DNA of 64,000 nucleotides from an uncultured Candidatus Saccharibacteria bacterium (GTDB lineage: Bacteria > Patescibacteriota > Saccharimonadia > Saccharimonadales > 2-12-FULL-41-12): contig CAZNIK010000001.1 in the NCBI GenBank assembly GCA_964573095.1, positions 56,507-120,506 on the forward strand, in the 5' to 3' direction. Shown here piece by piece: positions 19,716 to 31,987 of this stretch. Within the stretch, counting starts at the first letter, position 1. Each line of letters starts with the position of its first letter. The notes beneath the pieces are model-generated. The model saw only the letters and a list, made by a program, of their open reading frames with translations. It was not told where the DNA came from and made no database searches. A program made the translations under genes and the position numbers.

Positions 19716-20375
19716 TTAGAGGTTACGATACTGTCCACTTTTCAATGTACCGAGTGAGATGTTACTTACCTGCGTTCTGTGAAGATCGACAACTTGATAG
19801 CCGAGAGCTGAGAACGTGCGTCGAATTTGACGGTTCCTTCCCTCTGTAAGAGTGAGCTGAAGTCGCGTGCCAGAAGAATCTATTTTTTGGACCGCGAATA
19901 TGCTCGGCCCATCATCAAGCTGGACGCCTCGATTGCAAATCATTTTTTGGTCAGCTGGGTTAAGCGGCTTATCGAGCTTTACGAGATACACCTTCTGCTT
20001 TTGATAGCGGGGATGCGAAAGTCTGTTTGCGAGTTGCCCATCGTTTGTGAGCAAGAGCAGCCCCGACGTGTCTTTGTCTAGCCTACCAACCGGCTTTAGG
20101 TGCGACAGACTAGCTGGTAGCAGCTCGTAAATGGTTTTGTTGCCCTGTCGCCGTCTGCTGCACACATAGCCAGTGGGTTTGTTAAAAACAATTGTCTGAT
20201 GAGGTTTGTCGGCGTGCACTAGCTTGCCATCCAGGTGTACAATGTCGCCTTCGTGAACTATTTGCCCAAGGGAAGGTTTTGATTGGTTTACCCGTACCCG
20301 GCCTTGCTCTATGGCCGTATCCGCGGCTCTTCTGGATAAATCTGTGGCACGGGCGATAAATGTATTTAAGCGCAT
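19716..20375 (-). CDS. RsuA/RluB-family pseudouridine synthase (S4 domain + catalytic domain)
   Basis: 219 aa; N-terminal S4-like RLNTFIARA; catalytic VGRLDKDTSGLLLLTNDG motif. Confidence 0.75.
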   Translation of the reverse strand: MRLNTFIARATDLSRRAADTAIEQGRVRVNQSKPSLGQIVHEGDIVHLDGKLVHADKPHQTIVFNKPTGYVCSRRRQGNKTIYELLPASLSHLKPVGRLDKDTSGLLLLTNDGQLANRLSHPRYQKQKVYLVKLDKPLNPADQKMICNRGVQLDDGPSIFAVQKIDSSGTRLQLTLTEGRNRQIRRTFSALGYQVVDLHRTQVSNISLGTLKSGQYRNL

Positions 20376-20412
20376 CGGTTCTTGTGTGGTGTTGGACTAA
20401 TTCGCGGTAGTT

Positions 20413-21663
20413 CTACAGTGCTATTTTGCTGTGATCGTCGACTGGAGCCTCCGGTGGCGGGGTGTTGCTTGGTTCGACAACGGTTTGCGTTGCTGGGTCG
20501 ACGACGTTGCCGACTCCCGCTTCTGCCTCTGCCATTGCCTTAAGGTCGGGAGTCTTGGTAAGGTCGTTGATTGGTTCGATGACTTTCTTTTTTGGAGAAT
20601 CGTCGAGGGGGTTTTCTGGTTTGTGGGGTTCGGCTTGGGTAGGTGGTGTGGGGCCCTCCTCTTTTACTGGGGGTGGTGTCTGGGTTGGGCTCACGACACC
20701 AAGACTTTCAGCTCCGTTAATAATGCTTGGGTTTGGGGTTGCTTGCTTTGGTTCTTCCTCTGTGTTTGTGGCTTTGGCTTCTGCAACTTCCTCTTGTTGA
20801 AGTGCCTCGGCGAGACTTGGGCCGACGACACTAACGGGCTTGGGATTTTCTGTTGCTACCGGCGCGGCAGGTGGTGGTGTCGTTTCTTCGCTCGGTGGAG
20901 TTGGTAATTCAACTTTGATTGCCGGTTCGGTTGCTTCAACGGGTGGAGCGGGTGTGGGGGTCGCCGGTGCAGCCGGAGCTGTTGCAGCTACTGACTGAGT
21001 TTCTTCGGCGCTGACGGGTTGTGCGGGCGGAGTCTCAATATTCGGTGCTGTGCCAACTGGTGGGTCAAGCTCAACCGGTGTTGTTGTTGGTTCTGCGCCG
21101 ACAGCTTCTTTGGTTTTTGGCTCGGTCACTGCTTGGGCTTGGTCTTGCTGTGGGGCTGTGTTTTCGGTCGTTGCCACTACGGGATTGGTAGGGTTGACTT
21201 GCTCTGTAGTCGCTGCAGCTTGGGGTGTCGCCGGTTCAGTTGTTGGATCGACGGTGGTAGCTCCATCGACTCCAGTAATTGGGGCGTCACCAGAATTGTC
21301 TTGCAGGACATCTTTTACAGCTTTTGCGACATCTTCGAGTGTAACCTGTGATTTTACAAGGTAACGATCGGCGCCGAGTTTATCAGCCCGTGCTTTATCT
21401 TCTGCCTGGGAAAGAGCCGTCATCATAATTACTTTGGTGTTTTTTGTTTCTGGCGCGTTTCTAAGGATGTCAAGCATATCAAAGCCGCTAATTCTTGGCA
21501 TCATCACGTCAGAAATGATGAGATCTGGCTTTTCTTTTACGGCAAGCGCCAAGGCTTCTTCTCCGTCTTTGGCGGCTACAATAGTGTGCCCTTCAGCAAG
21601 CAAGCGGGCGCCATAAATTTCCCGAAGGTTGTTGTCGTCCTCAACGAGCATTATTTTGGCCAT
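20413..21663 (-). CDS. Response regulator receiver domain protein with ~290-aa Pro/Thr/Ala/Glu-rich disordered C-terminal tail
   Basis: The N-terminal 120 aa is a CheY-like REC domain (MLVEDD...DLIISDVMMP...KVIMMTAL...K). The rest is low-complexity PT/E-rich sequence with no output domain. It lies downstream of the kinase in the same operon. Confidence 0.7.
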   Translation of the reverse strand: MAKIMLVEDDNNLREIYGARLLAEGHTIVAAKDGEEALALAVKEKPDLIISDVMMPRISGFDMLDILRNAPETKNTKVIMMTALSQAEDKARADKLGADRYLVKSQVTLEDVAKAVKDVLQDNSGDAPITGVDGATTVDPTTEPATPQAAATTEQVNPTNPVVATTENTAPQQDQAQAVTEPKTKEAVGAEPTTTPVELDPPVGTAPNIETPPAQPVSAEETQSVAATAPAAPATPTPAPPVEATEPAIKVELPTPPSEETTPPPAAPVATENPKPVSVVGPSLAEALQQEEVAEAKATNTEEEPKQATPNPSIINGAESLGVVSPTQTPPPVKEEGPTPPTQAEPHKPENPLDDSPKKKVIEPINDLTKTPDLKAMAEAEAGVGNVVDPATQTVVEPSNTPPPEAPVDDHSKIAL

Positions 21664-21735
21664 ATTGTATACCTATCCCCTGTTTCTCGTATTCATTTTA
21701 TAACGAAAGTATATCACGTTTATGCTTCGTTCTTA

Positions 21736-23070
21736 CTAGATCAAGCTCGATGCTTGCTTTTCTTTCATTTGAAGTGTTTGGGCGCGTTGTGAAGTAAGTC
21801 TGGGGAGGTTAATAAAAAAAGTGCTGCCTTTGCCCAGCTCGCTTTCGGCCCAGATTGTGCCGTTATAGAGTTCGACGATCTTTCGACAGATAAACAGGCC
21901 AAGGCCCGTTCCGCCGATGGATCTTGTGGCTGAGTTGTCAACTCGGTAGAACTTTTGAAATAAATGAGGTATATCACTCTCTGGTATACCCGCACCCGTA
22001 TCTCTAATGCTGATTTGGACCACTGTGTCATTGCCCGTGATTCCGAGCGATACTTTCCCGCTATCAGTGTATTTTGTTGCGTTATCAAAAAGATTTGTAA
22101 TTACCTCTCTCATGCGGTCGGGGTCAACCAACACGAAATACAGTGGTTGAATCGTTTTGCCTTTGATGCTCGCATCGATAACGCTGTTGTCTCCCATGGG
22201 GTTGGAGTTTGTAACAAATTCTATGCCTAAACCTTTCTTTTCTGCGCCAAATCGCAAGTCTTCAGCAAGCTGCTCAACAAAGCTCCCCATTTCAGTTACG
22301 ACTGGATGACTTGTAAGCCGCCCGTCCTCTGCTTTTGCGCTCGTCAGAAGATCCTGGAACAGTTTGCCAAGATGCTGAGTGCTCGCGTGAGCTTTTTCCA
22401 AATATTCGCGGGCTCGGGCATCGATATTGCTCACTTTGTCATTGAGCGCCAACGCCAGGTAGCCTTCAATTGCGGCAACTGGTGTTCTCATTTCATGGCT
22501 CGCGGTGCTGATAAACTCTGCCCGTTGCTCTTCTTCGGAGCGTTCCTTACTTACGTCGCGAAACACTGCAATCGAACCTACTAATTCGTTATTTTTTGGG
22601 GCAACGACTGGCGAAATAACCAGCGAGATAAAGACGTGCTTATTTGCCCGATCTACGAGCGGAACTGTTTGGCTAAAACGCCCCCTGGTCGTAAGTACTG
22701 TTGTAAAAGGATGATCATTGTCTGAAACGGTAATATTATTTTTCTCATCGCTCAAAATACGAAGCACTGTCTTTGCATCAAAGCCCAGGGCTTCATCTAT
22801 TGGCCAGCCGGTCATTTCAGAGGCAGCTTTATTAAACAGGGTGATGGTTCCCTTCATGTCGGTCACGATCACACCGTCGCTTAGTGACTCTATGAGCGTC
22901 TCGGATTGGAGATCCTTGCTTTTGGCAACGTTTTTTACTAGTGTTTTATCGCTCGCCTTGCCTTCGCCCTTTTTTAGACCTCGCACAACCAACAGCACGC
23001 GAACTGATGCTGTAATTATTATCGCAACAATAACAATAGTGATAATGACTGTCAGCATCACCGAACCCAA
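21736..23070 (-). CDS. Sensor histidine kinase (TM-PAS-HisKA-HATPase_c)
   Basis: N-terminal TM helix, a PAS-like segment, H-box (ISTASHEMRTPVAAIEGY), then N/G1/G2 boxes (GTGLGLFICRKIVELYNGTIWAESELGKGSTF). Confidence 0.8.
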   Translation of the reverse strand: MGSVMLTVIITIVIVAIIITASVRVLLVVRGLKKGEGKASDKTLVKNVAKSKDLQSETLIESLSDGVIVTDMKGTITLFNKAASEMTGWPIDEALGFDAKTVLRILSDEKNNITVSDNDHPFTTVLTTRGRFSQTVPLVDRANKHVFISLVISPVVAPKNNELVGSIAVFRDVSKERSEEEQRAEFISTASHEMRTPVAAIEGYLALALNDKVSNIDARAREYLEKAHASTQHLGKLFQDLLTSAKAEDGRLTSHPVVTEMGSFVEQLAEDLRFGAEKKGLGIEFVTNSNPMGDNSVIDASIKGKTIQPLYFVLVDPDRMREVITNLFDNATKYTDSGKVSLGITGNDTVVQISIRDTGAGIPESDIPHLFQKFYRVDNSATRSIGGTGLGLFICRKIVELYNGTIWAESELGKGSTFFINLPRLTSQRAQTLQMKEKQASSLI

Positions 23071-23213
23071 GTACTGCTTTGATTGAGCTTATGCATATGC
23101 AGTGGATTATAGGCCATCCAGGGGTCGATCAGCTAGTGCTTTTCGTCCTGCGTGGACATTCTACCTCTGTTATGCTAGACTCTCATATGCATTCCTCGTT
23201 CACGGTCTGCCAA

Positions 23214-23232
23214 ACGGCCTCATCGTCTAACG
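23214..23232 (+). repeat. 19-nt duplicate of the 5' end of tRNA-Glu (acceptor + D-arm: ACGGCCTCATCGTCTAACG)
   Basis: Exact match to 23359-23377, which is the 5' end of the intact tRNA-Glu, but not followed by the rest of a tRNA. Confidence 0.6.
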
Positions 23233-23260
23233 TGAGAACTGCCAGTGGCAGTTTGCAAGG
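23232..23260 (+). repeat. Hairpin element copy 1 (GTGAG-AACTGCC-AGT-GGCAGTT-TGCAAGG)
   Basis: 29 nt, 24/29 identical to 23508-23536. The two stem differences (A:T to C:G and C:G to G:C) are compensatory, so the 7-bp stem is preserved in both copies. Confidence 0.55.
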
Positions 23261-23360
23261 CCGCAGGTGCGGCGGCACCGAGGAGGGCCCGACGGATTTT
23301 TTAGCAAAAAAATACCGGTGAGTCGATTCCAATCGAACCTTAAATAAGCGCAACATTCAC

Positions 23361-23435
23361 GGCCTCATCGTCTAACGGTTAGGACACCAGGTTCTCATCC
23401 TGGCAATCGGGGTTCGATTCCCCGTGAGGTCACCA
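23361..23435 (+). tRNA. tRNA-Glu (anticodon CUC)
   Basis: 75 nt by manual cloverleaf: acceptor GGCCTCA/TGAGGTC, anticodon stem CCAGG/CCTGG with loop TTCTCAT (CTC), T-arm CGGGG-TTCGATT-CCCCG, and an encoded CCA. Confidence 0.85.
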
Positions 23436-23443
23436 CGAAAAAT

Positions 23444-23469
23444 AGCTCAGCAGATGCTGGGCTTTTTTC
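23444..23469 (+). terminator. Hairpin + T6 run immediately after tRNA-Glu (putative intrinsic terminator)
   Basis: AGCTCAGCAGATGCTGGGC forms an imperfect stem and is followed by TTTTTT at 23463-23468. Confidence 0.4.
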
Positions 23470-23507
23470 GTGTTCAACGAGGATTGTGCACCGATTGCGG
23501 CAATCGG

Positions 23508-23536
23508 GTGAGCAGTGCCGGTGGCACTGTGCAAGG
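23508..23536 (+). repeat. Hairpin element copy 2 (GTGAG-CAGTGCC-GGT-GGCACTG-TGCAAGG)
   Basis: Homologue of 23232-23260 with covarying stem positions. It is preceded by a 17-nt palindrome CCGATTGCGGCAATCGG (23491-23507). Confidence 0.55.
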
Positions 23537-23594
23537 GAGTCAACTCTTGTAAACTGGTTTGCAAAGACGTTGCGACGGGCTCGCCGAAGGTGAG

Positions 23595-23616
23595 TCGATT
23601 CCCCGTGAGGTCACCA
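23595..23616 (+). repeat. 22-nt duplicate of the 3' end of tRNA-Glu (T-loop/acceptor/CCA: TCGATTCCCCGTGAGGTCACCA), att-like
   Basis: Exact match to 23414-23435. It is preceded by GGTGAGTCGATTCC, a 14-mer also present at 23317-23330 just upstream of the intact tRNA. Confidence 0.6.
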
Positions 23617-23671
23617 AAGTAGAAATGTTTACTTATACACGTGAAGTTGTTATGAGTTACAATATTAGAAT

Positions 23672-24886
23672 ATGGCAAATAAAAGTCTAGGTGCAGCAAA
23701 GAATGCAAAAAACGATGAGTTTTATACGCAGTTTTCTGATATCCAAAAAGAAATTGAAGCATACCTAGAATTCGATCCAGACACCTTTCGTGGGAAGGTG
23801 GTGTATTCCAATTGCGATGACCCCTTTGAAAGTAATTTCTTTCGTTACTTTGCACTTAATTTTAACCGTTTGGGCTTAAAAAAACTGATTGCCACAAGCT
23901 ATAAACCGTCACCTATTGCAAACACGCAACTTGGATTATTTGGTGACGATATTACAATTCAGTCTGAAAAAGGCAGGCCAAATGTAACAGCAAATAAGTT
24001 CATTATTAATGAAGTGCATGATATGGATGGAGACGGTGCTTTCAACATCTCGGACATTGCTAAACAACTTAAGGCTAATAAAAATAACGAATGGGGGCCG
24101 CTCAAAGGTGATGGTGATTTTCGTAGTGAAGAATGCTTAGAGCTTCTAGAACAGTCTGACATCGTGGTTACGAATCCTCCATTTAGTCTTTTTCGTGAAT
24201 ACGTAGCACAGCTCATGGAGCACAAAAAGAAATTTTTAATTATAGGAAACATGAATGCAGTTACTTATAAGGAAATTTTTCCTTTGATCAAAGCCAATAA
24301 AATATGGTTGGGAGTGACGCGACAAGGCACTGGATCAATGTGGTTTCAGGTAAGCCAAAACATGCCAGAGAAAACAGGTCAAAGAGTGGATCAAAACGGC
24401 ATACGATACCAAACAATCGGCAATTCGGCGTGGTTTACTAACCTTGATCACGGGCGACGTCATGAAAAACTATCTTTAATGACGACTGATGATGTTGTCA
24501 AGTTTGGAACAAAAAAAGACCTCGTTAAATATGACAATTACGACGCAATTGAAATATCCCTTGTAAAGTATATCCCGAAGGATTACAGGGGCGTAATGGG
24601 TGTACCGATTACTTTTCTAGGAAAGTATAATCCCGAACAATTTGAAATTCTCGGTGCTACACAAAGAGGTTGCCATGATGAGGTTCCTGATACCAGAAAA
24701 TATGATGACTATTGGGAAGTAAGACAAGATGGCACGAATACTGGATCATCTGGCGGCAAAACTAACGAAAACGCAAATCTAGTTGGTAATGATGGTAAGA
24801 AAAACTACTTTATTAACAAGGATGGGCGGATTGTACAATCTGCATATCAACGAGTATTTATTAGACACAGGAAGGAAGCGACATGA
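23672..24886 (+). CDS. DNA N6-adenine methyltransferase, EcoRI-methylase-like family (NPPF catalytic motif)
   Basis: 404 aa. Catalytic motif [10 protein letters not shown] is present. The N-terminal block NDEFYTQ...[22 protein letters not shown]...[11 protein letters not shown] matches my memory of the M.EcoRI family; the family assignment is from recall, not a search. Visibly lower GC than flanking genes. Confidence 0.75.
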
Positions 24887-26046
24887 TAACCACACTAAAA
24901 ACAGATATTATAATACGAGAAATCGTTGAAGGATTTGAATACAACGAACTTGAAGGCAAAGGTCTATTTGGTCTTTCAGGTAAGCTAACCATCCAGCCTG
25001 AATATCAAAGAAATTATATTTATGCTGATGGCAAAAAAGACGTTGCAGTAATAGAAAGTATTTTGAAAGGCTATCCTATTGGTGTTCTATACTTCAACAA
25101 GATAGATGATGATAAATACGAAGTACTAGACGGCCAACAGCGAATAACAAGTATCGGGCGTTTTATTAAAGGTAAATTTGCAGTTAAAGACGTAAATGGC
25201 CACGAACAATACTATAGTGGCATGTCAGAAGAACAGCGTAAGTTGATCCTAGATAAAGAACTACTTATATACATTTGCGAAGGTGAAGAACAGGAAATGA
25301 TGAAGTGGTTTGAAACCATTAACATCGCTGGCGTACCTTTGAAATTGCAAGAAATAAGAAATGCCGTTTACCACGGACCTTTCGTTAATAAAGCAAAAGA
25401 GATTTTCAGCAACAGTCAGGATGCCAATGTTCAAAAATGGAGCACCTATATTGCGGGTGAAGTTAAGCGTCAGGACTTTCTCGAAACAGCATTAGATTGG
25501 GTAAGTAACGGCAATATAGAAGCCTACATGAGCAATCACCGCAATGATGACAATATCGATGAACTTAAAACCCACTTCGACAAAGTTATAGATTGGGTCT
25601 CTTATACATTCACGGACGTACATAGTGAAATGCGAGGGCTTGAATGGGATCGTCTCTATAAAGAATATGGCTCTAGTTCATACGATCCTAAAAAAATCGC
25701 AAGCAAAGTTAAAGAACTTTATACAAGCTATGAAGTGCGTAGGAAGAAAGGTATTTTCGAGTACATTCTTAGCGGTATGGATGATCCGTCTTTGCTCGAG
25801 ATACGGATATTTGAACCTTCAACTATCAAGACAGCCTATGCACAACAAACGGCTAAAGCTGAAGAAGAAGGAGTGTCGAACTGTCCTATTTGTGCTTCAG
25901 GAAGCAACAACAATAAAGACCGAATTTATAAATTATCGGAAATGGATGCGGATCATGTAACTGCATGGAGTAATGGCGGTGTGACCGACATAAGTAACTG
26001 CGAGATGCTGTGCAGTACTCATAATCGCGCAAAAGGCAATAGATAG
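24883..26046 (+). CDS. DUF262 (ParB-like nuclease, DGQQR motif) + C-terminal HNH endonuclease; GmrSD/SspE/BrxU-like
   Basis: 387 aa. The N-terminus [11 protein letters not shown]...[14 protein letters not shown] is the DUF262/ParB-N signature. The C-terminus CPIC...[32 protein letters not shown] is an HNH (His-Me finger) motif. The start ATG overlaps the MTase stop (ATGA) and is preceded by a GAAGGAAG Shine-Dalgarno sequence. Confidence 0.75.
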
Positions 26047-26062
26047 AAGATAGCTCTAAATC

Positions 26063-26923
26063 ATGAATTTAAAGAAAATATATAATAGCACCACCACCCT
26101 GGAAGAATGGCTCTCATATAAAGGTTCCACTGAAGATGGCGAGAGTTCTTATTTTGAGAACAAGGAAGTTGGCATTGATTTGAACACGACAACTCCAAGC
26201 ACAGTTGGCGACTTCAAGCTTCGCATCGCAAAAGAAATGTCTGCATTTGCTAATACTGATTCAGGGATTATAGCACTCGGAATTGATAGCAAGCTGCAAG
26301 TTAATAATCTGACTGCTCGTCTAGAGGATTGGCTCGATAAAAATATTCGAGATATGCTGGAGCCGCAACTATCAGGTATCGCTCTTAAAACATGCACAGA
26401 TTCTGCTGGCAACGAGTTTGTCTTGATGTATGTGCCCAAGGGCAATGTTATTCCGTACAGGGCGAGTTCCGTGAAAAGCTGTGAAAAAGAAAAAAAGAAT
26501 TTGCGGGAATATTTCCAGAGAACTGGTACCAATAGCGTACCCATACCTATGCCCATAGTTCGGAGCCTGTATCTATCAAATGAACGCGCAACAGACGTGT
26601 CAGCTCGCGTAAAGCCAGTCGCAGTCCATCTAGGTGATGAGGAGGAGCAGCCATATATCGAGTTGGGTATAGAAATTAAGCCCGACCAGACGCGCCTTAT
26701 TAACGAATACTACCTCAAAGCAAGTGTTCTTCTCCTTGATGTAAACTTGAAGCCTCTGAATAAGGTAGCGATTGACCTCGTACCATTTGGACCAAATAGT
26801 CCACAACGACCTATAATTCCACCCGATAGCATTTATCCTATGAATGAATTCGGTACGGTAAGCGTAACAAGGATGAATATTAACTTTTCGGATAAGTCGA
26901 GTGATTATCACTCGGGGTATTGA
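26063..26923 (+). CDS. AlbA_2 / Schlafen-like (putative DNA-binding 'divergent AAA') domain protein with uncharacterised C-terminal domain
   Basis: The N-terminal 150 aa fits the AlbA_2 pattern (YFENKEV...EMSAFANTDSGIIALGIDSK...NEFVLMYVPKGNVIPYRA...YFQRTG). The C-terminal ~130 aa was not recognised. The gene is AT-rich like the two preceding genes. Confidence 0.5.
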   Translation: MNLKKIYNSTTTLEEWLSYKGSTEDGESSYFENKEVGIDLNTTTPSTVGDFKLRIAKEMSAFANTDSGIIALGIDSKLQVNNLTARLEDWLDKNIRDMLEPQLSGIALKTCTDSAGNEFVLMYVPKGNVIPYRASSVKSCEKEKKNLREYFQRTGTNSVPIPMPIVRSLYLSNERATDVSARVKPVAVHLGDEEEQPYIELGIEIKPDQTRLINEYYLKASVLLLDVNLKPLNKVAIDLVPFGPNSPQRPIIPPDSIYPMNEFGTVSVTRMNINFSDKSSDYHSGY

Positions 26924-27075
26924 TAATACTAACAAAATCGGTGCCCAAGCCAGTTATTATAATATATTTATAAGGTTTGGACGATTTATCGCAACTACCT
27001 CATTATTTTAAGCAATAATACCCCAAAGCGAATATGCTTTTCTCTTTCTTATTTGTTTTCCTCCACCTATAATGA

Positions 27076-29184
27076 GTGCCAAGAAGAAAGCGAAAATATT
27101 TAGTGGTACCAGAAATAGATGAGGCTATCGAACAAGCTGTTGCGGAGGGTGTTCCTCCGCAAAACATTGCCAGTAACCTAATTGCCAAGGGTTGGCCCCC
27201 AAAGCTTGTGAATGAGGTAGTGCATTCGTGGCTGCTGTATCATGGGCGCACCTATAGCAAAACTGGATTCAAGACATGGGTTTCGAGCTATAAACAAAAG
27301 GCCCTTATCCCGGCGCTGATCGTGATTTTTATCAGCGTTATTACGTCTTCGATTGCGTTGCTTCGTCCCTGGCCGACAAAGATAATGGTCGATTCGGCGT
27401 TTGGTAATGTTCCGGCGCCGGACTGGATTGGCGACTACACCAAGCCGGCCACTCTCATCCTTGTGACGTCGTTAATGACGGTTGCGATTTTTGTTTCTGG
27501 CGCGCTGATCGGTTCTTTTCGAGATTACATGGTTTTTAAGTTGAGCTTTCGTTTGAACCGTGATGTCAAGGAGGAGTCGCTGCGGCACATTCTGCACCTG
27601 CCGCTCTACCAGAAGGGTCGTCTAAGCAAAGGAGATTACATCCATCGCCAGAACACCCTTACCAATAGTCTGTCGGAATATGTGCTGGGTACCACAGCCG
27701 CGATTGCACAGTCGATAATCATGGTTTTTGGGATACTGCTCGTTATGCTGAGTTTTAGTGTTCGATTGACTGTGATAAGCATCATAATACTGCCCGTTCT
27801 ATTTATTCTTACAAAGGTCTACGGTCCGCGCCTTAGTCAGATTTCTCGGAAGCTTACAAAAAATTCGAGCTATGCAACCTCGATTATTACCGAGTCAGTC
27901 GATAACGCTGAAACGGTTCAAGCGTATAGTCTTGAGGAAAAACAGATAAAAAAAGCTAACCAGCTATGGCTTCAAAGCTATGACTACTCTCGGAGTGGTT
28001 TGCTCTGGGGCAGAACCTATCGTTTCACGAATGGACTTCTTATTGTGCTGGCAACAGCGACGGTGATGTATTTTGGTGGCACTGCTGCGCTGAATCGAGA
28101 AATATCTCTTGGTGAACTACTGATATTTATGACGTACATGGGCTACTTGCTTGTGCCCGTGCAAACCTTGGCTAGTCAGATTGCTGCGCGGAGCCAGAGA
28201 AAGGCGGATGTCGAAAGGGTGTATGAGGTGCTCAGCGACTACCAAGGGGTTGAAAATCTACGCGCCGATAAGCATTTTCCGATCAGCAAGGGGCGGATTG
28301 AACTTCAAAATGTGAGCTATTCTTATGGGGATAGCATGGTGCTGAACAATGTGAGCTTGACTGTAGAAGCTGGTCAGAAGATTGGCATTATTGGGCCGAG
28401 CGGCAGCGGCAAAAGCACACTACTAAAGCTCCTGCCGCTATTTCTCGAACCGACGATGGGAAAAATCATGATTGATGGAATTGACGTGCAAACAGTTTCG
28501 CTTCGAGAACTTAGGCGCGCGATTGCGTGGGTCAGCCAGACGCCCCAGCTCTTTAACGAAAGTATTGGCGACAACTTACTGGATAGTGACCCATCAAGAC
28601 ATGTTTCGCACCAAGAAGTTGAGCGAGCCATAGATGTTGCTGATATGAAGGACTTTGTCGTAAAACTGCCGTCCAATATTAATACCGTCGCGGGAGAGAG
28701 TGGGAATAATTTGAGCGGCGGGCAGCGTCAGCGTGTTTCGCTTGCCCGAGGACTGTTAAAAAACTCTCCAATTATTTGCATGGACGAACCAACTTCGGCG
28801 CTTGATGGTAAAAGCGAAAAGAAAATTCATGATTCAATTCTCCAACTCGTTGAAGGTAAAACTGTGATTTTAGTTACGCATCACCAGTCTTTGCTAAGCC
28901 TCATGGACGTAGTGTACGTCATGGAAAATGGAACGTTGGTGAATGTTGAGAGTCTTGGGGGGCTCGATAACTATCTTCTGAAGATGAATGATATGGAGGC
29001 GAAGGATATGAAAAAACAAGCGGAGCTTGAGGAGGCTCGACTGGCCGAGCAAATTCTAAATGAACAGAACCGAAAAAGGCTAGAAGAACTTGAAGCCGAC
29101 AACGAAGCCCTACAGCAAAAGGCTGATTTCCGGTCAACATCCTCCCCTTCTTCGGATGACGTGACGATTTTTATCAATCACTGA
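27076..29184 (+). CDS. ABC transporter, fused permease/ATP-binding exporter (type I ABC exporter) with N- and C-terminal extensions
   Basis: 702 aa: a ~60-aa soluble N-terminus, a 6-TM domain, then an NBD with Walker A GPSGSGKST, signature LSGGQRQRVSLARGLL and Walker B ICMDEPTSALD, followed by a C-terminal coiled-coil tail. Confidence 0.8.
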   Translation: MPRRKRKYLVVPEIDEAIEQAVAEGVPPQNIASNLIAKGWPPKLVNEVVHSWLLYHGRTYSKTGFKTWVSSYKQKALIPALIVIFISVITSSIALLRPWPTKIMVDSAFGNVPAPDWIGDYTKPATLILVTSLMTVAIFVSGALIGSFRDYMVFKLSFRLNRDVKEESLRHILHLPLYQKGRLSKGDYIHRQNTLTNSLSEYVLGTTAAIAQSIIMVFGILLVMLSFSVRLTVISIIILPVLFILTKVYGPRLSQISRKLTKNSSYATSIITESVDNAETVQAYSLEEKQIKKANQLWLQSYDYSRSGLLWGRTYRFTNGLLIVLATATVMYFGGTAALNREISLGELLIFMTYMGYLLVPVQTLASQIAARSQRKADVERVYEVLSDYQGVENLRADKHFPISKGRIELQNVSYSYGDSMVLNNVSLTVEAGQKIGIIGPSGSGKSTLLKLLPLFLEPTMGKIMIDGIDVQTVSLRELRRAIAWVSQTPQLFNESIGDNLLDSDPSRHVSHQEVERAIDVADMKDFVVKLPSNINTVAGESGNNLSGGQRQRVSLARGLLKNSPIICMDEPTSALDGKSEKKIHDSILQLVEGKTVILVTHHQSLLSLMDVVYVMENGTLVNVESLGGLDNYLLKMNDMEAKDMKKQAELEEARLAEQILNEQNRKRLEELEADNEALQQKADFRSTSSPSSDDVTIFINH

Positions 29185-29198
29185 TGTCTTAAGACAGG

Positions 29199-29750
29199 CT
29201 AGACTTCGAGTTCGCCAATGCCTGGCTCGCCTGGTGCAGATTCGTCACCAGAGCCTGGCATTTGACCTATTCCTGGATCGTCGTAGTCGCCTCCAGCGCC
29301 CGCGCCAGCATAATCGACCCCTCCGGCCGCCGGGGCTTCCCCGACGGGTGCAGGTGGCGCAATTGGATCGATGGTACCCGCAACAGGAGTTGTGGGAGTG
29401 ACCACCGTTTGGCTTTCTGTGCCTACAACTGGGCTTGTTGTGGCAGTGGTTTCTGGAACTGGCAGATTGTTTTGTAGTGGCTGAACAGCCTCCGATGTTT
29501 CTGTGTTGTCGGCCGCGGTTTCAACGCTTTCTGGTGTGCTAACAGTGGGCGTTTCTTCAATGACTGGCAAAGGTTGCTCGGTGTTTACCGTCTCAACTTG
29601 GGCGCCTACTGGCTCCACTACTTGACCTGCTTGTTGGCTGGCGATTGGTACGAGCGTTTCTTCGTAGGCTTGTTGGGCTTGATTATAGTCACTGGTGATC
29701 CCAGTATCTTGTTTTTGTTGCGTACTGTCGTCTTGTGAAGAGTCGTCCAT
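29199..29750 (-). CDS. Acidic Pro/Thr/Glu-rich low-complexity protein
   Basis: 183-aa ORF, compositionally biased (PT-rich, many D/E), with no catalytic motifs. Its coding status is uncertain. Confidence 0.35.
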   Translation of the reverse strand: MDDSSQDDSTQQKQDTGITSDYNQAQQAYEETLVPIASQQAGQVVEPVGAQVETVNTEQPLPVIEETPTVSTPESVETAADNTETSEAVQPLQNNLPVPETTATTSPVVGTESQTVVTPTTPVAGTIDPIAPPAPVGEAPAAGGVDYAGAGAGGDYDDPGIGQMPGSGDESAPGEPGIGELEV

Positions 29751-29880
29751 TTGATACCCTTTATTTTACGTGATAATTATGGTTGCCACTATATATGCGG
29801 GCTATAGCTTTCGTCAATTAAGAATAGTATGAACTCCTAGGACATCGAGCTTGGGTTTGTGGTGCCTAGATGGCTAATGG

Positions 29881-30318
29881 CTACTGCAAGCCGGGGACGT
29901 ATTCGTGAATACTGCCGTACTCTATGTGGTGTTGTGGCGGGTTATTGATTGCCAAGAGCGCTGCTTTGATGGTTGGACTATGTGAGACTGCGACTACCGC
30001 ATCGAGGTCTTGAACTCGCCCAACACAAAGGTCTTCGAGAAGGGTGTTTGTAAGGTGTGCGAGAGCTGCGCTGTCGTCCGAGCGTGGCGAGAGTACATCG
30101 TTGTAGCATATTTCGTCTACCCCGAGTGTTTTGGCAATAATCTTTGAGGTTTCGTCGGCGCGAATAGTGCAAGAAGAAAAGATGGCAACTTTTCCCAAAT
30201 TTTCAGCCTTTAGCCAATCGGCTGCCTGTTGGGCTTGGTTTCTGCCAACTTCAATCAGTGGCCCGTCCTCTTTCGGTCCATACTCAAAAGCACCGTGTCG
30301 CACTAAAAAAGTTCTCAT
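29881..30318 (-). CDS. Histidine phosphatase family protein (SixA/phosphoglycerate-mutase-like)
   Basis: 145 aa; RHG motif at the N-terminus (LVRHGAFEY), a later SSCTIRADETSKI segment and a C-terminal VSHSP His. Confidence 0.55.
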   Translation of the reverse strand: MRTFLVRHGAFEYGPKEDGPLIEVGRNQAQQAADWLKAENLGKVAIFSSCTIRADETSKIIAKTLGVDEICYNDVLSPRSDDSAALAHLTNTLLEDLCVGRVQDLDAVVAVSHSPTIKAALLAINNPPQHHIEYGSIHEYVPGLQ

Positions 30319-30362
30319 GATAGTATCCTAGTTTGGCCAATGAGGATTTGCAAGCACTAGAG

Positions 30363-31649
30363 TTACTTTATTGTTATTGCCGCCAACTCATCCCAGCAGG
30401 TCGTATATCTTGGGCTTCTGGTAAGGTGTTTTGGCTCCCACGTTCGGCTAAGGTCCTCACTCGCAGCGTGTAGTAATCGTCGCCCATATTTATCGTTTAG
30501 TTTGTCCACGGCTTTCATTCGCCGCACCTCTTTGTCAAACTGGGCGGGATTTTTTGCGCCAAAGAGATCTGGTTGAAACGAGTCGTTTTTGACAAGATCG
30601 CTCAATAAAACTCCCCCTCGATGATAAAGGGCGCCTGGTTTGTGAAAAGAACTGAGCATTCTATTTGCGAGGGCAGTGAGCGCGCCTGTGTCGGCGGTAG
30701 CTTGGGCCAAAACTATTTCTTTTGTCCATTTTTGATAGCCGGGCTTATGGCGATTTGAAGACAGAAAAACCTGTAGCTTTCTTGCAACCAGGCCTTGGGT
30801 TCTGAGTCTATGTGCGGCACGCGCAACAAAACTTGCCAAGGCACTTTCTACGACGTGGAGCTGGTTTGTGTCTTCGCCGAACGTTCTTGTGGCGCTAATG
30901 CTCCGTTGCCCGACCTTAATTCGTTCGAGGGGGATACACGATTGCCCTCGAAGCTCTCGCACAAGGCGTTCGCCAATAATTGAACCAAATAATTTATGTC
31001 CTTGGGTGGGTGTGAGGTTCCGCAAGTCGTGTGCTGACGATAAACCAACTGCCCTTAGGCGTGGTGCCATTCGCCAGCCAATCCCCCAGATATCTTCAAG
31101 CGATGTCTGCTCGAGGTAGTGATCATGCTCGTTTTTGGAACTATCAATGTATAAAACGCCTTGCAAGACGTGGCTCTTCTTTGCGCGCTCACCTGCGAGT
31201 TTGGCGAGTGTTTTTGAGGTGGCGATGCCGATACTAACGGAGACGCCAGTCCATTTTTGAATTTTGGATCGCACGGCTTTTCCCCACTCTTCGAGGTCTG
31301 GTATTGATAGTTGCGAAATATCTAAAAACGACTCGTCGATCGAGTATACCTCCACGCGAGGGGTTATGCTGGTAAGTATTTCGGTAATGCGACGGGAGAT
31401 ATCACCGTACAATTCGAAGTTGGCACTAAAGCGCACCACCTGGTTTTCGTTCAACACTCGTTTGTATTTGAATGCCGGGGCTCCCATCGGAATTCCAAGC
31501 TGTTTCGCTTTGTTGCTTCTGGCTACAACGCAACCGTCGCCACTGCTAAGAACAACCACCGCCCTGCCCGCAAGATCTGGTCGAAAGATTTGTTCGCACG
31601 ACACAAAAAAGTTATTACAGTCAATCAGCGCAAATAGAGGTTGTTTCAT
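30363..31649 (-). CDS. umuC: Y-family translesion DNA polymerase (UmuC/DinB-like)
   Basis: The N-terminus LIDCNNFFVSCEQIFRPDLAGRAVVVLSSGDGCVVARSNKAKQLGIPMGAP is canonical for the UmuC/Pol IV palm domain. The start was set at MKQPLFAL, overlapping the umuD stop by 4 nt. Confidence 0.8.
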   Translation of the reverse strand: MKQPLFALIDCNNFFVSCEQIFRPDLAGRAVVVLSSGDGCVVARSNKAKQLGIPMGAPAFKYKRVLNENQVVRFSANFELYGDISRRITEILTSITPRVEVYSIDESFLDISQLSIPDLEEWGKAVRSKIQKWTGVSVSIGIATSKTLAKLAGERAKKSHVLQGVLYIDSSKNEHDHYLEQTSLEDIWGIGWRMAPRLRAVGLSSAHDLRNLTPTQGHKLFGSIIGERLVRELRGQSCIPLERIKVGQRSISATRTFGEDTNQLHVVESALASFVARAAHRLRTQGLVARKLQVFLSSNRHKPGYQKWTKEIVLAQATADTGALTALANRMLSSFHKPGALYHRGGVLLSDLVKNDSFQPDLFGAKNPAQFDKEVRRMKAVDKLNDKYGRRLLHAASEDLSRTWEPKHLTRSPRYTTCWDELAAITIK

Positions 31650-31987
31650 AGTTGCTTCATCCGATGAATAACAGAGGTTACAGTGCCCCATAGTTCTTTT
31701 TTTAGGGCATCTGCGGCCAGATTACTCATGACGAATTGGTCGTGATCCCACCAAACCACCACGTCGTTTTTAGTTGGCTCAACTGCTCGATCTATCACTA
31801 CAATGTCACCAGAAAATATGCCCAGCTCTTTCCATTCATTGCTGTCAAGGCGCATCAAATAAGTTGCTGAAGGATGTGCGATAAGTAGGCGTGAGAGGTC
31901 GAGCTGTCGGCTTTGTGAGCCAATTGCCGCATTTGGAAACCCAGCGTGTGTTGAAACACCGAGATCTCTAAGTGCCTCTTCGTCCAT
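31646..31987 (-). CDS. umuD: UmuD-like LexA/S24 peptidase-domain protein
   Basis: 113 aa; AGFPNAA (cleavage-site region), LDLSRLLIAHPSATYLMRLDSNEW (Ser nucleophile region) and GIFSGDIVVIDR, consistent with the S24 fold; lies upstream of umuC. Confidence 0.65.
   Translation of the reverse strand: MDEEALRDLGVSTHAGFPNAAIGSQSRQLDLSRLLIAHPSATYLMRLDSNEWKELGIFSGDIVVIDRAVEPTKNDVVVWWDHDQFVMSNLAADALKKELWGTVTSVIHRMKQL

What the first reader, a model, noticed from the sequence alone, without database searches (positions are those of the whole stretch)
23190..23620. tRNA-Glu locus with duplicated 5' and 3' tRNA fragments and a hairpin pair showing compensatory substitutions
An intact tRNA-Glu(CUC) sits at 23361-23435. 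Upstream there is an exact 19-nt copy of its 5' end (23214-23232). Downstream there is an exact 22-nt copy of its 3' end including CCA (23595-23616). This is the classic direct-repeat signature of site-specific integration, but the repeats are spaced only about 190 bp apart, so it looks like a scar or nested remnant. In addition a 14-mer GGTGAGTCGATTCC occurs at 23317 and 23589. Two 29-nt elements (23232-23260 and 23508-23536) are 24/29 identical, and both stem differences are compensatory (A:T to C:G and C:G to G:C). That pattern argues for selection on the hairpin structure, either as RNA or as an integrase or recombinase binding site. A 17-nt perfect palindrome CCGATTGCGGCAATCGG sits between them.
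Basis: seen in the sequence. Interest (0 to 1): 0.6.

Follow-up and report, generated by a model that had tools for sequence, protein, structure and literature searches.

The report
tRNA-Glu flanked by structured RNA modules
The repeated tRNA pieces and the hairpins are real, but they look less like the scar of an integrated virus or island than like two diverged copies of an undescribed ~95-base three-hairpin element that, in Saccharibacteria (TM7), sits fused to end-fragments of the tRNA-Glu gene and comes and goes between closely related strains.

Summary
The window comes from a Saccharimonadales (TM7/CPR) bacterium.

The two 29-nt hairpins are the first helix of two paralogous ~95-nt elements: unit A at 23232-23330 and unit C at 23508-23602. 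A covariance model finds this element beside tRNA-Glu(CUC) in at least seven other lineages, always on the tRNA strand. Across 10 copies, 94% of cells pair, 24 of 35 pairs show compensatory changes, and G·U pairs are conserved. No Rfam family matches.

Upstream copies are fused to tRNA nt 1-16. Downstream copies are fused to the T-loop-to-CCA segment. Those fusions are the "direct repeats".

Conspecific strains carry A only, C only, or both, with indels falling exactly between the repeats. I found no integrase at the locus, no enrichment of integrases in 110 neighbouring ORFs, and no match in viral contigs.

Best reading: these are tRNA-Glu-derived structured RNA modules co-transcribed with the tRNA. 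Their tRNA-identical ends allow precise recombinational loss and gain. What the RNA does is unknown. The site is also a cargo hotspot; here it holds a type II R-M island.

The parts
23153..23181 (+). Promoter-like site (TGGACA, 17 nt spacer, TG-extended TAGACT) that would drive unit A plus tRNA-Glu. It carries the conserved CCTCTGTTA-TGnTAnnnT motif.
   Evidence: The same motif lies upstream of the first element in many related loci.
23214..23232 (+). Head: 2 leader nt plus tRNA-Glu nt 1-17, an exact copy of 23359-23377. It keeps the ancestral leader that L002 has directly before its tRNA.
23232..23330 (+). Unit A: a diverged copy of the three-helix element. H3 is 23237-23243/23247-23253. H4 is reduced to the mini-hairpin 23261-23272. 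The H5-like stem is CACC 23276-23279 paired with GGTG 23317-23320, enclosing a 37-nt insert.
   Evidence: CM R1 hit, 33.7 bits, E 2.4e-5, model positions 1-95. Identical copy in L145/L146. Absent from L002.
23331..23339 (+). AATCGAACC, the reverse complement of the T-arm sequence GGTTCGATT. It pairs locally with TCGATT at 23323-23328. An AT-rich spacer follows, up to 23360.
   Evidence: Read from the sequence. The same motif ends the upstream element of L046 and opens helix H2 of most downstream modules.
23361..23435 (+). Intact tRNA-Glu(CUC) with encoded CCA.
23444..23469 (+). Intrinsic terminator of the tRNA (8-bp stem containing a U.G pair on the + strand, followed by a T run).
23491..23507 (+). 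H2 hairpin/palindrome. The right arm GGCAATCGG equals tRNA nt 42-50 and the left arm is its complement. The homologous hairpin in L001 unit 2 has a 21-nt loop.
23508..23602 (+). Unit C: a full three-helix element. H3 is 23512-23519/23523-23530. H4 is 23536-23553/23558-23576. H5 is 23578-23585/23589-23596 with a GAA triloop.
   Evidence: fold_alignment. CM R1 hit, 101.2 bits. Pair counts.
23595..23616 (+). Tail: exact copy of tRNA nt 54-75 (T loop to CCA), overlapping the last 2 nt of H5.
23672..26923 (+). Cargo that begins right after the tail: type II R-M (EcoRI-like methylase; DUF262/HNH endonuclease) plus a Schlafen/AlbA_2 protein, at low GC. It is absent from L002 and L146.

Best explanation
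The locus is a tRNA-Glu(CUC) gene flanked by two diverged copies of an undescribed ~95-nt three-hairpin element. The element's layout is GUGAG, H3, YGCAAGG, a long H4, then H5 with a GAA triloop.

In Saccharimonadales this element lies on the tRNA strand inside partial copies of tRNA-Glu. Upstream copies are fused to tRNA nt 1-16. Downstream copies are fused to the T-loop-to-CCA segment and are preceded by a hairpin made from the T-arm/variable region and its complement.

The 'direct repeats' are therefore the tRNA-identical caps of these modules.

Shown here:
- the homology of units A and C;
- conserved pairing with compensatory changes and conserved G.U pairs on the sense strand;
- restriction to the tRNA-Glu flank in the DNA examined;
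- presence/absence of each unit independently among conspecific strains, with breakpoints exactly at the repeats;
- caps that track each lineage's own tRNA sequence.

Inferred:
- The modules act as RNA. Unit A would be part of the 5' leader transcribed from the promoter at 23153-23181 and released by RNase P. Unit C would be a read-through trailer ending in a tRNA-like 3' end.
- The 19- to 22-nt caps cause precise deletion or duplication by slippage or recombination between repeats, and alleles are exchanged by natural transformation.

Most speculative step (roughly 0.15-0.2): the RNAs present tRNA-Glu termini as mimics or decoys for a factor that reads tRNA ends.
For: - Units A and C both match CM R1 over model positions 1-95 (101.2 and 33.7 bits). 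There are no other hits in the 64-kb window.
- Independent hits not in the seed alignment: L007 at 53.9 bits and L155 at 49.5 bits. L144 is only a marginal hit (13.8 bits, E 0.2-0.5).
- RNAalifold on 5 sequences predicts 35 pairs, 20 of them with compensatory changes.
- On 10 copies, 94% of cells pair against 71% in shuffles and 28-46% when partners are slid. 24 of 35 pairs change on both sides. G.U pairs are conserved at two H5 positions.
- The sense strand folds better than the antisense strand in 26 of 33 modules (Wilcoxon p = 0.002).
- H3 alone is 100% paired across 7 sequences, including U.G and G.U pairs. A search using only the flanking motifs found no unpaired counter-example next to a tRNA.
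- Unit A lies between a promoter-like site and the tRNA. A terminator follows the tRNA.
- Strain polymorphism: the window has A+C, L145/L146 have A only, and L002 has C only.
- In an unbiased sample, a tail copy is present in 14 of 105 loci and a head copy in 5 of 97.
- Tails differ from their own tRNA at a mean of 0.5 of 19 nt, against 4.2 for other lineages' tRNAs. Heads are identical to the own acceptor strand in 6 of 7 cases.
- There is no Rfam match at E <= 10.
- Saccharibacteria are naturally competent (abstract of PMC10187176 / PMC10633639).
Against: - There are no expression data.
- Unit C sits behind an 8-bp terminator with no promoter of its own, so it would be transcribed only by read-through.
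- The family has few independent lineages (about 8), and the CM-fitted alignment leans towards the model.
- Several hits were first found with filters that required similarity to the own tRNA or a paired stem. That inflates the 'tracking' and pairing figures somewhat.
- Patchy distribution, tandem copies and adjacency to cargo genes are also what a DNA-level mobile or recombination element would show.
- G.T pairs are tolerated in folded single-stranded DNA too.
- No function can be assigned. The conserved single-stranded GUGAG and GCAAGG motifs are unexplained.
Confidence: 0.55

Rival explanations
1. Integrase-made att scars, or CIME-like remnants. In this view elements integrated site-specifically into tRNA-Glu, their interiors were later deleted, and only attP arms remain between duplicated att cores. 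The hairpins would be recombinase or accessory-protein binding sites.
For: - The tails start in the T loop and run to CCA. This is the classic identity block of T-loop-targeting tyrosine integrases (own knowledge).
- The indels fall exactly between the repeats.
- Cargo genes sit between tRNA and repeat in L045, L092, L042 and L069.
- An R-M island abuts the tail in the window.
Against: - No integrase in the ten ORFs flanking the window locus.
- Phage_integrase is absent from the families hit by 2 or more of 110 downstream ORFs; only two resolvase-domain hits appeared.
- Four viral-contig scans gave 0 hits.
- Repeat lengths vary from 17 to about 95 nt between loci. That does not fit a single fixed crossover site.
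- A repeat of the tRNA 5' end is atypical for such integrases.
- Spacings are narrow (121-183 bp) and the interior shows compensatory evolution and sense-strand G.U pairs, which scars should not show.
Confidence: 0.12
2. A DNA-level selfish or recombination element that works as folded single-stranded DNA. Possibilities are an integron-attC-like cassette boundary, an IS200/IS605-type palindromic miniature element, or a Xer-exploiting hairpin site, targeting tRNA-Glu sequence and mobilised in trans.
For: - Structure is conserved while sequence varies, as in attC sites (own knowledge).
- There are tandem copies: L082 x3, and L001, L094 and L120 x2.
- The distribution is patchy.
- Cargo genes are interleaved with cores in L069.
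- The sense/antisense T-arm hairpin H2 would rebuild a duplex copy of the tRNA T-arm region in a folded strand.
- Near-identical 16-nt palindromes are inserted in loops of tRNA pseudo-copies in L046 and L144.
Against: - No IntI, TnpA, TnpB or other transposase was seen near any locus.
- The element keeps a fixed orientation relative to the tRNA promoter and terminator.
- Hairpin apices carry RNA-typical loops: CUUG or CUGG tetraloops and an invariant GAA triloop.
- The junction tRNA nt 16|GUGAG is identical in four lineages with different acceptor stems. That points to old inheritance rather than repeated insertion.
- No other copy exists in the 64-kb window.
Confidence: 0.18
3. Neutral decay of tandem tRNA-Glu duplications. 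On this view the flanking units are simply degenerating pseudo-tRNAs, and the exact repeats are the parts that have not yet mutated.
For: - L046 has an upstream copy still recognisable as tRNA-Glu along most of its length, with hairpins inserted in the D and anticodon loops.
- H3 sits where the anticodon stem would be.
- Some tails are visibly decaying, for example L034, L089 and L001 unit 2.
Against: - Neutral decay does not give 24 of 35 pairs with compensatory changes.
- It does not give conserved G.U positions or sense-strand bias.
- It does not explain caps that stay identical to each lineage's own tRNA while the interior is unalignable between subtypes.
Confidence: 0.05

Closest known systems
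Tandem att repeats, cis-mobilizable elements (CIMEs) and accreted islands at tRNA/tmRNA genes, e.g. the Dehalococcoides ssrA islands (PMC3146451, abstract; IME/CIME review PMC5704250, title and abstract only)
   Same: Direct repeats of the 3' end of a small RNA gene bound DNA segments that are present or absent between strains. Several segments can lie in tandem. Cargo and defence genes accumulate at the site.
   Different: - Neither the locus nor a census of related loci shows an integrase.
- The segments are only 120-180 bp.
- They show compensatory evolution of three helices.
- A 5'-end repeat also exists.
- Repeat length varies between loci.
tRNA-linked or tRNA-derived non-coding RNAs (3' external transcribed spacer RNAs of tRNA operons, mascRNA, the tRNA-like domain of bacterial Y RNA YrlA) - own knowledge
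   Same: A structured RNA made from the same transcript as a tRNA, or carrying tRNA-like ends, and defined by tRNA-processing sites.
   Different: - The modules do not form a cloverleaf, and no partner for the acceptor 3' strand is conserved.
- There is no Rfam hit: the mascRNA, tmRNA and tRNA models match only the real tRNA.
- The modules are dispensable and polymorphic within a species.
Integron attC sites (own knowledge)
   Same: The size range is about 60-140 nt. Secondary structure is conserved while primary sequence is poorly conserved. They sit at the boundaries of short gene cassettes.
   Different: - There is no IntI and no R''/L''-L'/R' organisation.
- The element consists of three consecutive hairpins rather than one long imperfect palindrome.
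- It is tied to one tRNA gene and to that gene's strand.
Short palindromic insertion elements in RNA genes (Rickettsia palindromic elements, REP/REPIN) - own knowledge
   Same: Hairpin-forming short sequences are inserted into pseudo-tRNA loops (L046, L144). Copy number varies.
   Different: The element was not seen dispersed: there is no other copy in the 64-kb window. It is also capped by tRNA fragments.

Membership tests
Integrated element / CIME bounded by integrase att sites at a tRNA gene | Direct repeat of the tRNA 3' segment (identity block from the T loop or anticodon loop to the 3' end) at both ends | tested here: met
   The 22-nt repeat 23414-23435 = 23595-23616.
Integrated element / CIME bounded by integrase att sites at a tRNA gene | A tyrosine or serine integrase encoded in the element, next to it, or in intact relatives of it | tested here: not met
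   - Pfam on the ten flanking ORFs found none.
- Of 110 ORFs downstream of tRNA-Glu in related loci, Phage_integrase is not among the families with 2 or more members; two ORFs hit the Resolvase domain.
- The whole genome could not be searched.
Integrated element / CIME bounded by integrase att sites at a tRNA gene | Empty site in close relatives with breakpoints at the repeats | tested here: met
   L002 lacks the 145 bp of unit A. L145/L146 lack the 181 bp of terminator plus unit C.
Integrated element / CIME bounded by integrase att sites at a tRNA gene | The same core carried by a free or viral element (attP) | tested here: not met
   Four exact-pattern scans of IMG/VR gave 0 hits.
Conserved structured non-coding RNA | Base pairs maintained by compensatory changes across lineages, above controls | tested here: met
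   20 of 35 pairs. In one search, 24 of 35 pairs, 94% of cells paired, 0 of 500 shuffles as high, and slid controls at 28-46%.
Conserved structured non-coding RNA | Strand specificity (G.U pairs, better folding of one strand) | tested here: met
   Conserved G.U pairs in H5 and H3. The sense strand is more stable in 26 of 33 modules.
Conserved structured non-coding RNA | Lies in a transcription unit (promoter and terminator) and is expressed | tested here: inconclusive
   Unit A lies between a promoter-like site and the tRNA. Unit C lies behind the tRNA terminator with no promoter of its own. Expression cannot be tested with these tools.
Any Rfam 15 family (tRNA-like, tmRNA, T-box, ribozymes, TM7 motifs) | Covariance-model match | tested here: not met
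   Gathering and E <= 10 scans match only the intact tRNA. The L007 copy gives no hit at E <= 0.01.
Integron attC / cassette array | IntI integrase, an attI site, and a single imperfect palindrome with R''/R' cores | tested here: not met
   No integrase found. The element is three serial hairpins.
tRNA pseudogene | Recognisable homology to the tRNA along most of its length | tested here: not met
   Only nt 1-17, 42-51 and 54-75 are alignable in the window units. ARAGORN calls no gene there. L046 does have a near full-length pseudo-copy.

The most novel reading that the evidence does not exclude
Saccharibacteria carry a previously unrecognised class of tRNA-end-capped structured RNA modules. 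These are three-hairpin RNAs fused to the 5' or 3' terminus of tRNA-Glu(CUC).

Two readings of this remain open:
- The modules are functional trans-acting mimics or regulators of tRNA-Glu ends, for example decoys for a tRNA-end-reading enzyme or toxin.
- They are the boundaries of an integrase-free cassette system that uses the tRNA termini as recombination handles at a defence-gene hotspot.
Probability: 0.3. Interest if true: 0.8.

Novelty: new variant of a known kind. Interest (0 to 1): 0.64.

Why it matters
- It would add a new, covariation-supported RNA class to a phylum (CPR/Patescibacteria) whose non-coding repertoire is almost unknown.
- It is a caution for annotation. Exact tRNA-fragment repeats are routinely read as att sites of integrated elements. 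Here they appear to be the caps of small structured modules, and they make a tRNA flank recombinogenic without an integrase.
- It marks the tRNA-Glu flank as a strain-variable hotspot carrying R-M, toxin-antitoxin and other cargo in these reduced genomes.
- It gives a concrete system for asking how partial tRNA copies stay identical to the functional gene, since Saccharibacteria are naturally competent and can now be manipulated genetically.

Tried and rejected
- Rfam at gathering and permissive thresholds matched nothing but the tRNA.
- Viral-contig scans for the unit pattern and for three tRNA-Glu 3' cores gave 0 hits.
- Exact-protein look-ups of the window's HK (with its TTG start) and of the response regulator found nothing on record. 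The 440-aa HK form P0001 did work.
- The other tRNAs in the window (Leu 40549, Ser 49897) have no such repeats.
- T-box-like reading: the GAG codon in GUGAG and a UGGU in the H4 loop would pair with ACCA. However, UGGU is present in only 3 of 6 copies and no T-box model matches, so I rejected it.
- Closing helix GGUGA/UCACC between the element start and the tail: there is no covariation to test it, and L007 has GCGAG. Left open.
- Hammerhead-like or other ribozyme cores: no model match and the core motifs differ.
- TnpB/omega-RNA-like reading (scaffold plus a 3' 'guide' equal to the flanking tRNA end): no TnpA or TnpB was found, and I did not pursue it.
- An acceptor-stem partner for the tail was looked for by eye in several modules and not found.
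- Literature searches for a described equivalent returned nothing relevant.
Full report
**1.

The region reads as the first-stage reader described it.
- ARAGORN and Rfam place one intact tRNA-Glu(CUC) with encoded CCA at 23361-23435.
- The repeat finder returns the 19-nt exact repeat 23214-23232 = 23359-23377 (two leader bases plus tRNA nt 1-17).
- It also returns the 22-nt exact repeat 23414-23435 = 23595-23616 (T loop to CCA), the 14-mer at 23317 and 23589, and the 29-nt pair 23232-23260 / 23508-23536 at 24/29 identity.
- The 17-nt palindrome lies at 23491-23507.
- None of these recurs in 100 dinucleotide-preserving shuffles of the window.
- Four of the five differences between the 29-mers form two compensatory stem pairs; the fifth is in the loop.

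**2. Organism and neighbours**

The histidine kinase immediately upstream (21736-23070, minus strand) finds orthologous loci only in Candidatus Saccharimonadales / Saccharibacteria MAGs. In most of these a tRNA-Glu(CUC) lies divergently next to the kinase.

Downstream of the repeats the window has a low-GC block (38-42%). It encodes an EcoRI-like type II methylase, a DUF262/HNH restriction enzyme and a Schlafen/AlbA_2 protein, followed by an ABC transporter. Pfam scans of the ten ORFs flanking the locus (19716-31691) found no integrase or recombinase.

**3. The two hairpins belong to two copies of one three-helix element**

Aligning unit C with its relatives gives a consensus of three hairpins. 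The relatives are the L002 copy, a copy about 2 kb downstream of tRNA-Glu in L069, and copies upstream of tRNA-Glu in L037 and L108.
It is flanked by invariant GUGAG and YGCAAGG.
- H4 is a long helix topped by a CUGG or CUUG loop.
- H5 is an 8-bp helix with an invariant GAA triloop and conserved G.U pairs.
- Of 35 predicted pairs, 20 show compensatory changes among only five sequences.

A covariance model built from this alignment gave these results:

| Source | Score | Note |
|---|---|---|
| Seed sequences | 81-104 bits | In the model |
| L007 | 53.9 bits | Not in the seed |
| L155 (HK 75% identical) | 49.5 bits | Contig-truncated, not in the seed |
| Window unit A, 23232-23330 | 33.7 bits, E 2e-5 | Covers model positions 1-95 |
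| L037, second copy | 24.4 bits | |
| L144 | 13.8 bits, E 0.2-0.5 | Marginal |

There are no other hits in the 64-kb window.

Across the ten matches:
- 94% of cells pair, against 71% in shuffles and 28-46% when partners are slid by 1-3 columns;
- 24 of 35 pairs change on both sides.

This alignment is fitted to the model, so the figures lean towards the structure.

For H3 alone, seven distinct sequences are 100% paired, with three covarying positions and two wobble pairs. A search that required only the flanking motifs found no unpaired counter-example beside a tRNA.

In unit A, H4 is reduced to a mini-hairpin and H5 encloses a 37-nt insert. The shared 14-mer is simply the 3' strand of H5 plus the first T-loop bases.

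**4. Strand and signals**

- Every copy is on the tRNA strand.
- The wobble pairs are G.U on that strand and would be A.C on the other.
- With the tRNA-identical caps removed, the sense strand folds more stably than the antisense strand in 26 of 33 modules of all subtypes (Wilcoxon p = 0.002; the sequences are not fully independent).
- A TG-extended promoter-like site at 23153-23181 precedes unit A. It carries a motif (CCTCTGTTA-TGnTAnnnT) that recurs upstream of the first element in many related loci.
- An intrinsic terminator at 23444-23469 follows the tRNA.
- Unit A is therefore inside the predicted tRNA-Glu primary transcript. Unit C has no promoter of its own and would need read-through.
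- No Rfam family matches either unit, even at E <= 10.

**5. What the direct repeats are**

In upstream copies (window, L108, L144/L031, L155) the element starts immediately after tRNA nt 1-16, at the same junction (..GTCTAAC|GTGAG). This holds even though the acceptor sequences differ (GGCCTCA, GGTCGCA, GGTCTTA, GGACTCA).

In downstream copies (window/L002, L069, L007) H5 runs straight into the T-loop-to-CCA segment. The element is preceded by a hairpin whose 3' arm is tRNA nt 42-50 and whose 5' arm is its complement.

So the repeats are tRNA-identical caps of the modules.

The same logic holds for other module subtypes whose sequences are unrelated. A metagenome scan with a 40-mer of this tRNA returned 120 loci.
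- Among distinct loci with enough flank, 14 of 105 have a second T-loop-to-CCA copy within 400 nt downstream.
- 5 of 97 have a second copy of nt 1-17 within 320 nt upstream.
- Some carry tandem copies: L082 x3, and L001, L094 and L120 x2.

Downstream modules share one architecture: terminator, a short hairpin, a sense/antisense T-arm hairpin, a long hairpin with a YUUR tetraloop, a small AT-rich hairpin, the tail, then a terminator.

The caps track the resident tRNA:
- Tails differ from their own tRNA at a mean of 0.5 of 19 positions, against 4.2 for the other 36 variants.
- Heads equal the own acceptor strand in 6 of 7 cases.
- The modules were found by similarity to their own tRNA, which biases this comparison.

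**6. Polymorphism among conspecific strains**

Three alleles exist among strains whose kinase is 97-100% identical.

| Strain | Unit A | Terminator + unit C | After the tRNA or tail |
|---|---|---|---|
| Window | yes | yes | R-M island |
| L145/L146 (kinase 100%) | yes (identical) | no | ancestral terminator, then a 264-aa gene |
| L002 (kinase 97%) | no | yes | ancestral terminator, no cargo |

The missing segments are exactly the 145 bp and 181 bp between the repeats. L155, an outgroup with 75% kinase identity, has an upstream copy. Loss from L002 by recombination or slippage between the 19-nt repeats is therefore at least as likely as gain in the window lineage.

The window's third island gene ends with the last 34 residues of the 264-aa gene of L146. 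The island therefore replaced the terminator and most of that gene.

Elsewhere, cargo is wedged between the tRNA and a repeat, with repeats of very different length:
- 54 nt of tRNA in L045;
- about 95 nt in L042;
- 28-nt repeats around a dehydrogenase, next to a ParE/RHH pair, in L069;
- a 405-aa ORF before the module in L092.

**7. Why not an integrase scar**

Supporting the scar reading:
- The tail starts in the T loop, where many tyrosine integrases cross over (own knowledge).
- The indels are precise.

Against it:
- No integrase is at the locus.
- A Pfam census of 110 ORFs of 230-520 aa within 4.5 kb downstream of tRNA-Glu, in about 85 loci, lists 125 families. Phage_integrase is not among those hit twice or more, and two ORFs hit the Resolvase domain.
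- Four IMG/VR scans for the unit and for three common cores found nothing.
- Repeat length is not fixed.
- A 5'-end repeat is atypical.
- Module sizes are narrow (about 100-150 nt plus terminator).
- The interior evolves by compensatory change.

I therefore rate the scar/CIME reading at about 0.12. A DNA-level (folded single-strand) mobile or recombination element stays open at about 0.18. It would explain the patchiness, the tandem copies and the cargo adjacency, and G.T pairs are tolerated in DNA hairpins. However, no cognate enzyme is seen, the orientation is tied to the tRNA transcription unit, and the junctions look inherited rather than repeatedly created. Pure neutral decay of tRNA duplicates is disfavoured by the covariation.

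**8. Best explanation and its limits**

The locus holds two paralogous, tRNA-Glu-derived structured modules that most likely act as RNA on the tRNA strand. Their tRNA-identical caps make them prone to precise loss, duplication and exchange. Saccharibacteria are naturally competent (PMC10187176 / PMC10633639, abstracts). This explains the strain polymorphism and the resemblance to att sites.

What the RNA does is not shown. My preferred guess is that it presents tRNA-Glu termini as a mimic or decoy for a factor that reads tRNA ends. A weaker variant is that local hairpins merely neutralise left-over tRNA strands that would otherwise mispair with the functional tRNA. Both are low confidence.

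Still unexplained:
- the invariant GUGAG and GCAAGG motifs;
- the antisense T-arm motif (AATCGAACC, 23331-23339), shared by upstream and downstream modules;
- how 17- to 22-nt caps stay identical to the tRNA.

**9. Novelty**

No Rfam family and no paper found here describes this.

I class it as a new variant of known kinds (tRNA-linked repeats and tRNA-derived structured RNAs), with a realistic chance (about 0.3) that it is a distinct functional class.

Noticed in passing
window 23672-26923: A low-GC type II restriction-modification pair (EcoRI-like methylase; DUF262/HNH endonuclease) plus a Schlafen/AlbA_2 protein. The whole block is absent from strains L002 and L146. The last 34 residues of the third protein are the C-terminus of a resident 264-aa gene of L146, so the island overwrote the tRNA terminator and most of that gene.
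   Followed up: partly
window 23163-23181; upstream of tRNA-Glu in L004, L010, L011, L041, L046, L069, L082, L108, L144: A conserved promoter-like motif CCTCTGTTA followed by a TG-extended -10 (TGnTAnnnT) precedes the first element of the tRNA-Glu locus across Saccharimonadales.
   Followed up: partly
L046 and L144, upstream of tRNA-Glu: Near-identical 16-nt palindromes sit in the D loop and anticodon loop of tRNA-Glu pseudo-copies, and after H3. They are TCCGCTGTACAGCGGA / TCCGCTGGCTAGCGGA in L046 and TTCGCCGTACGGCGAA / TTCGCCGTATGGCGAA in L144. The pattern looks as if a small hairpin had been copied locally.
   Followed up: no
L082, 294 nt upstream of tRNA-Glu: Three tandem 98-nt units, each starting with tRNA nt 1-17. 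Each contains the anticodon stem closed by a 3-nt loop and a segment complementary to the D region. This is a different upstream module subtype, also seen in L041 and L066.
   Followed up: no
L069 1700-3780: A ParE/RHH toxin-antitoxin pair and a 2-hydroxyacid dehydrogenase lie between tRNA-Glu and the three-helix element. The dehydrogenase is flanked by 28-nt repeats (tcgaYcctactcaccctatgRttcacca) that resemble a degenerate tRNA tail.
   Followed up: partly
L045 3649-4470; L042 801-1560 (coordinates with the tRNA on the + strand): Single genes are flanked by long duplications of the tRNA region: tRNA nt 22-75 plus 9 nt in L045, and CCA plus about 95 nt including the terminator in L042. These resemble single-crossover (Campbell-type) products more than a fixed att core.
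   Followed up: no
L147-L154 (Logan contigs), equivalent to window 23245: Eight independent assemblies that carry the identical kinase all end at the same base, inside the H3 hairpin of unit A. This is probably an assembly break at the inverted repeat rather than a biological end.
   Followed up: no
L007 2600-2960: A good copy of the element (53.9 bits) with the tail GATTCCCCTTGGGATCACCA. No intact tRNA-Glu was detected between locus positions 2000 and 4100. An unrecognised sequence ending in CACCA plus a terminator precedes it.
   Followed up: partly
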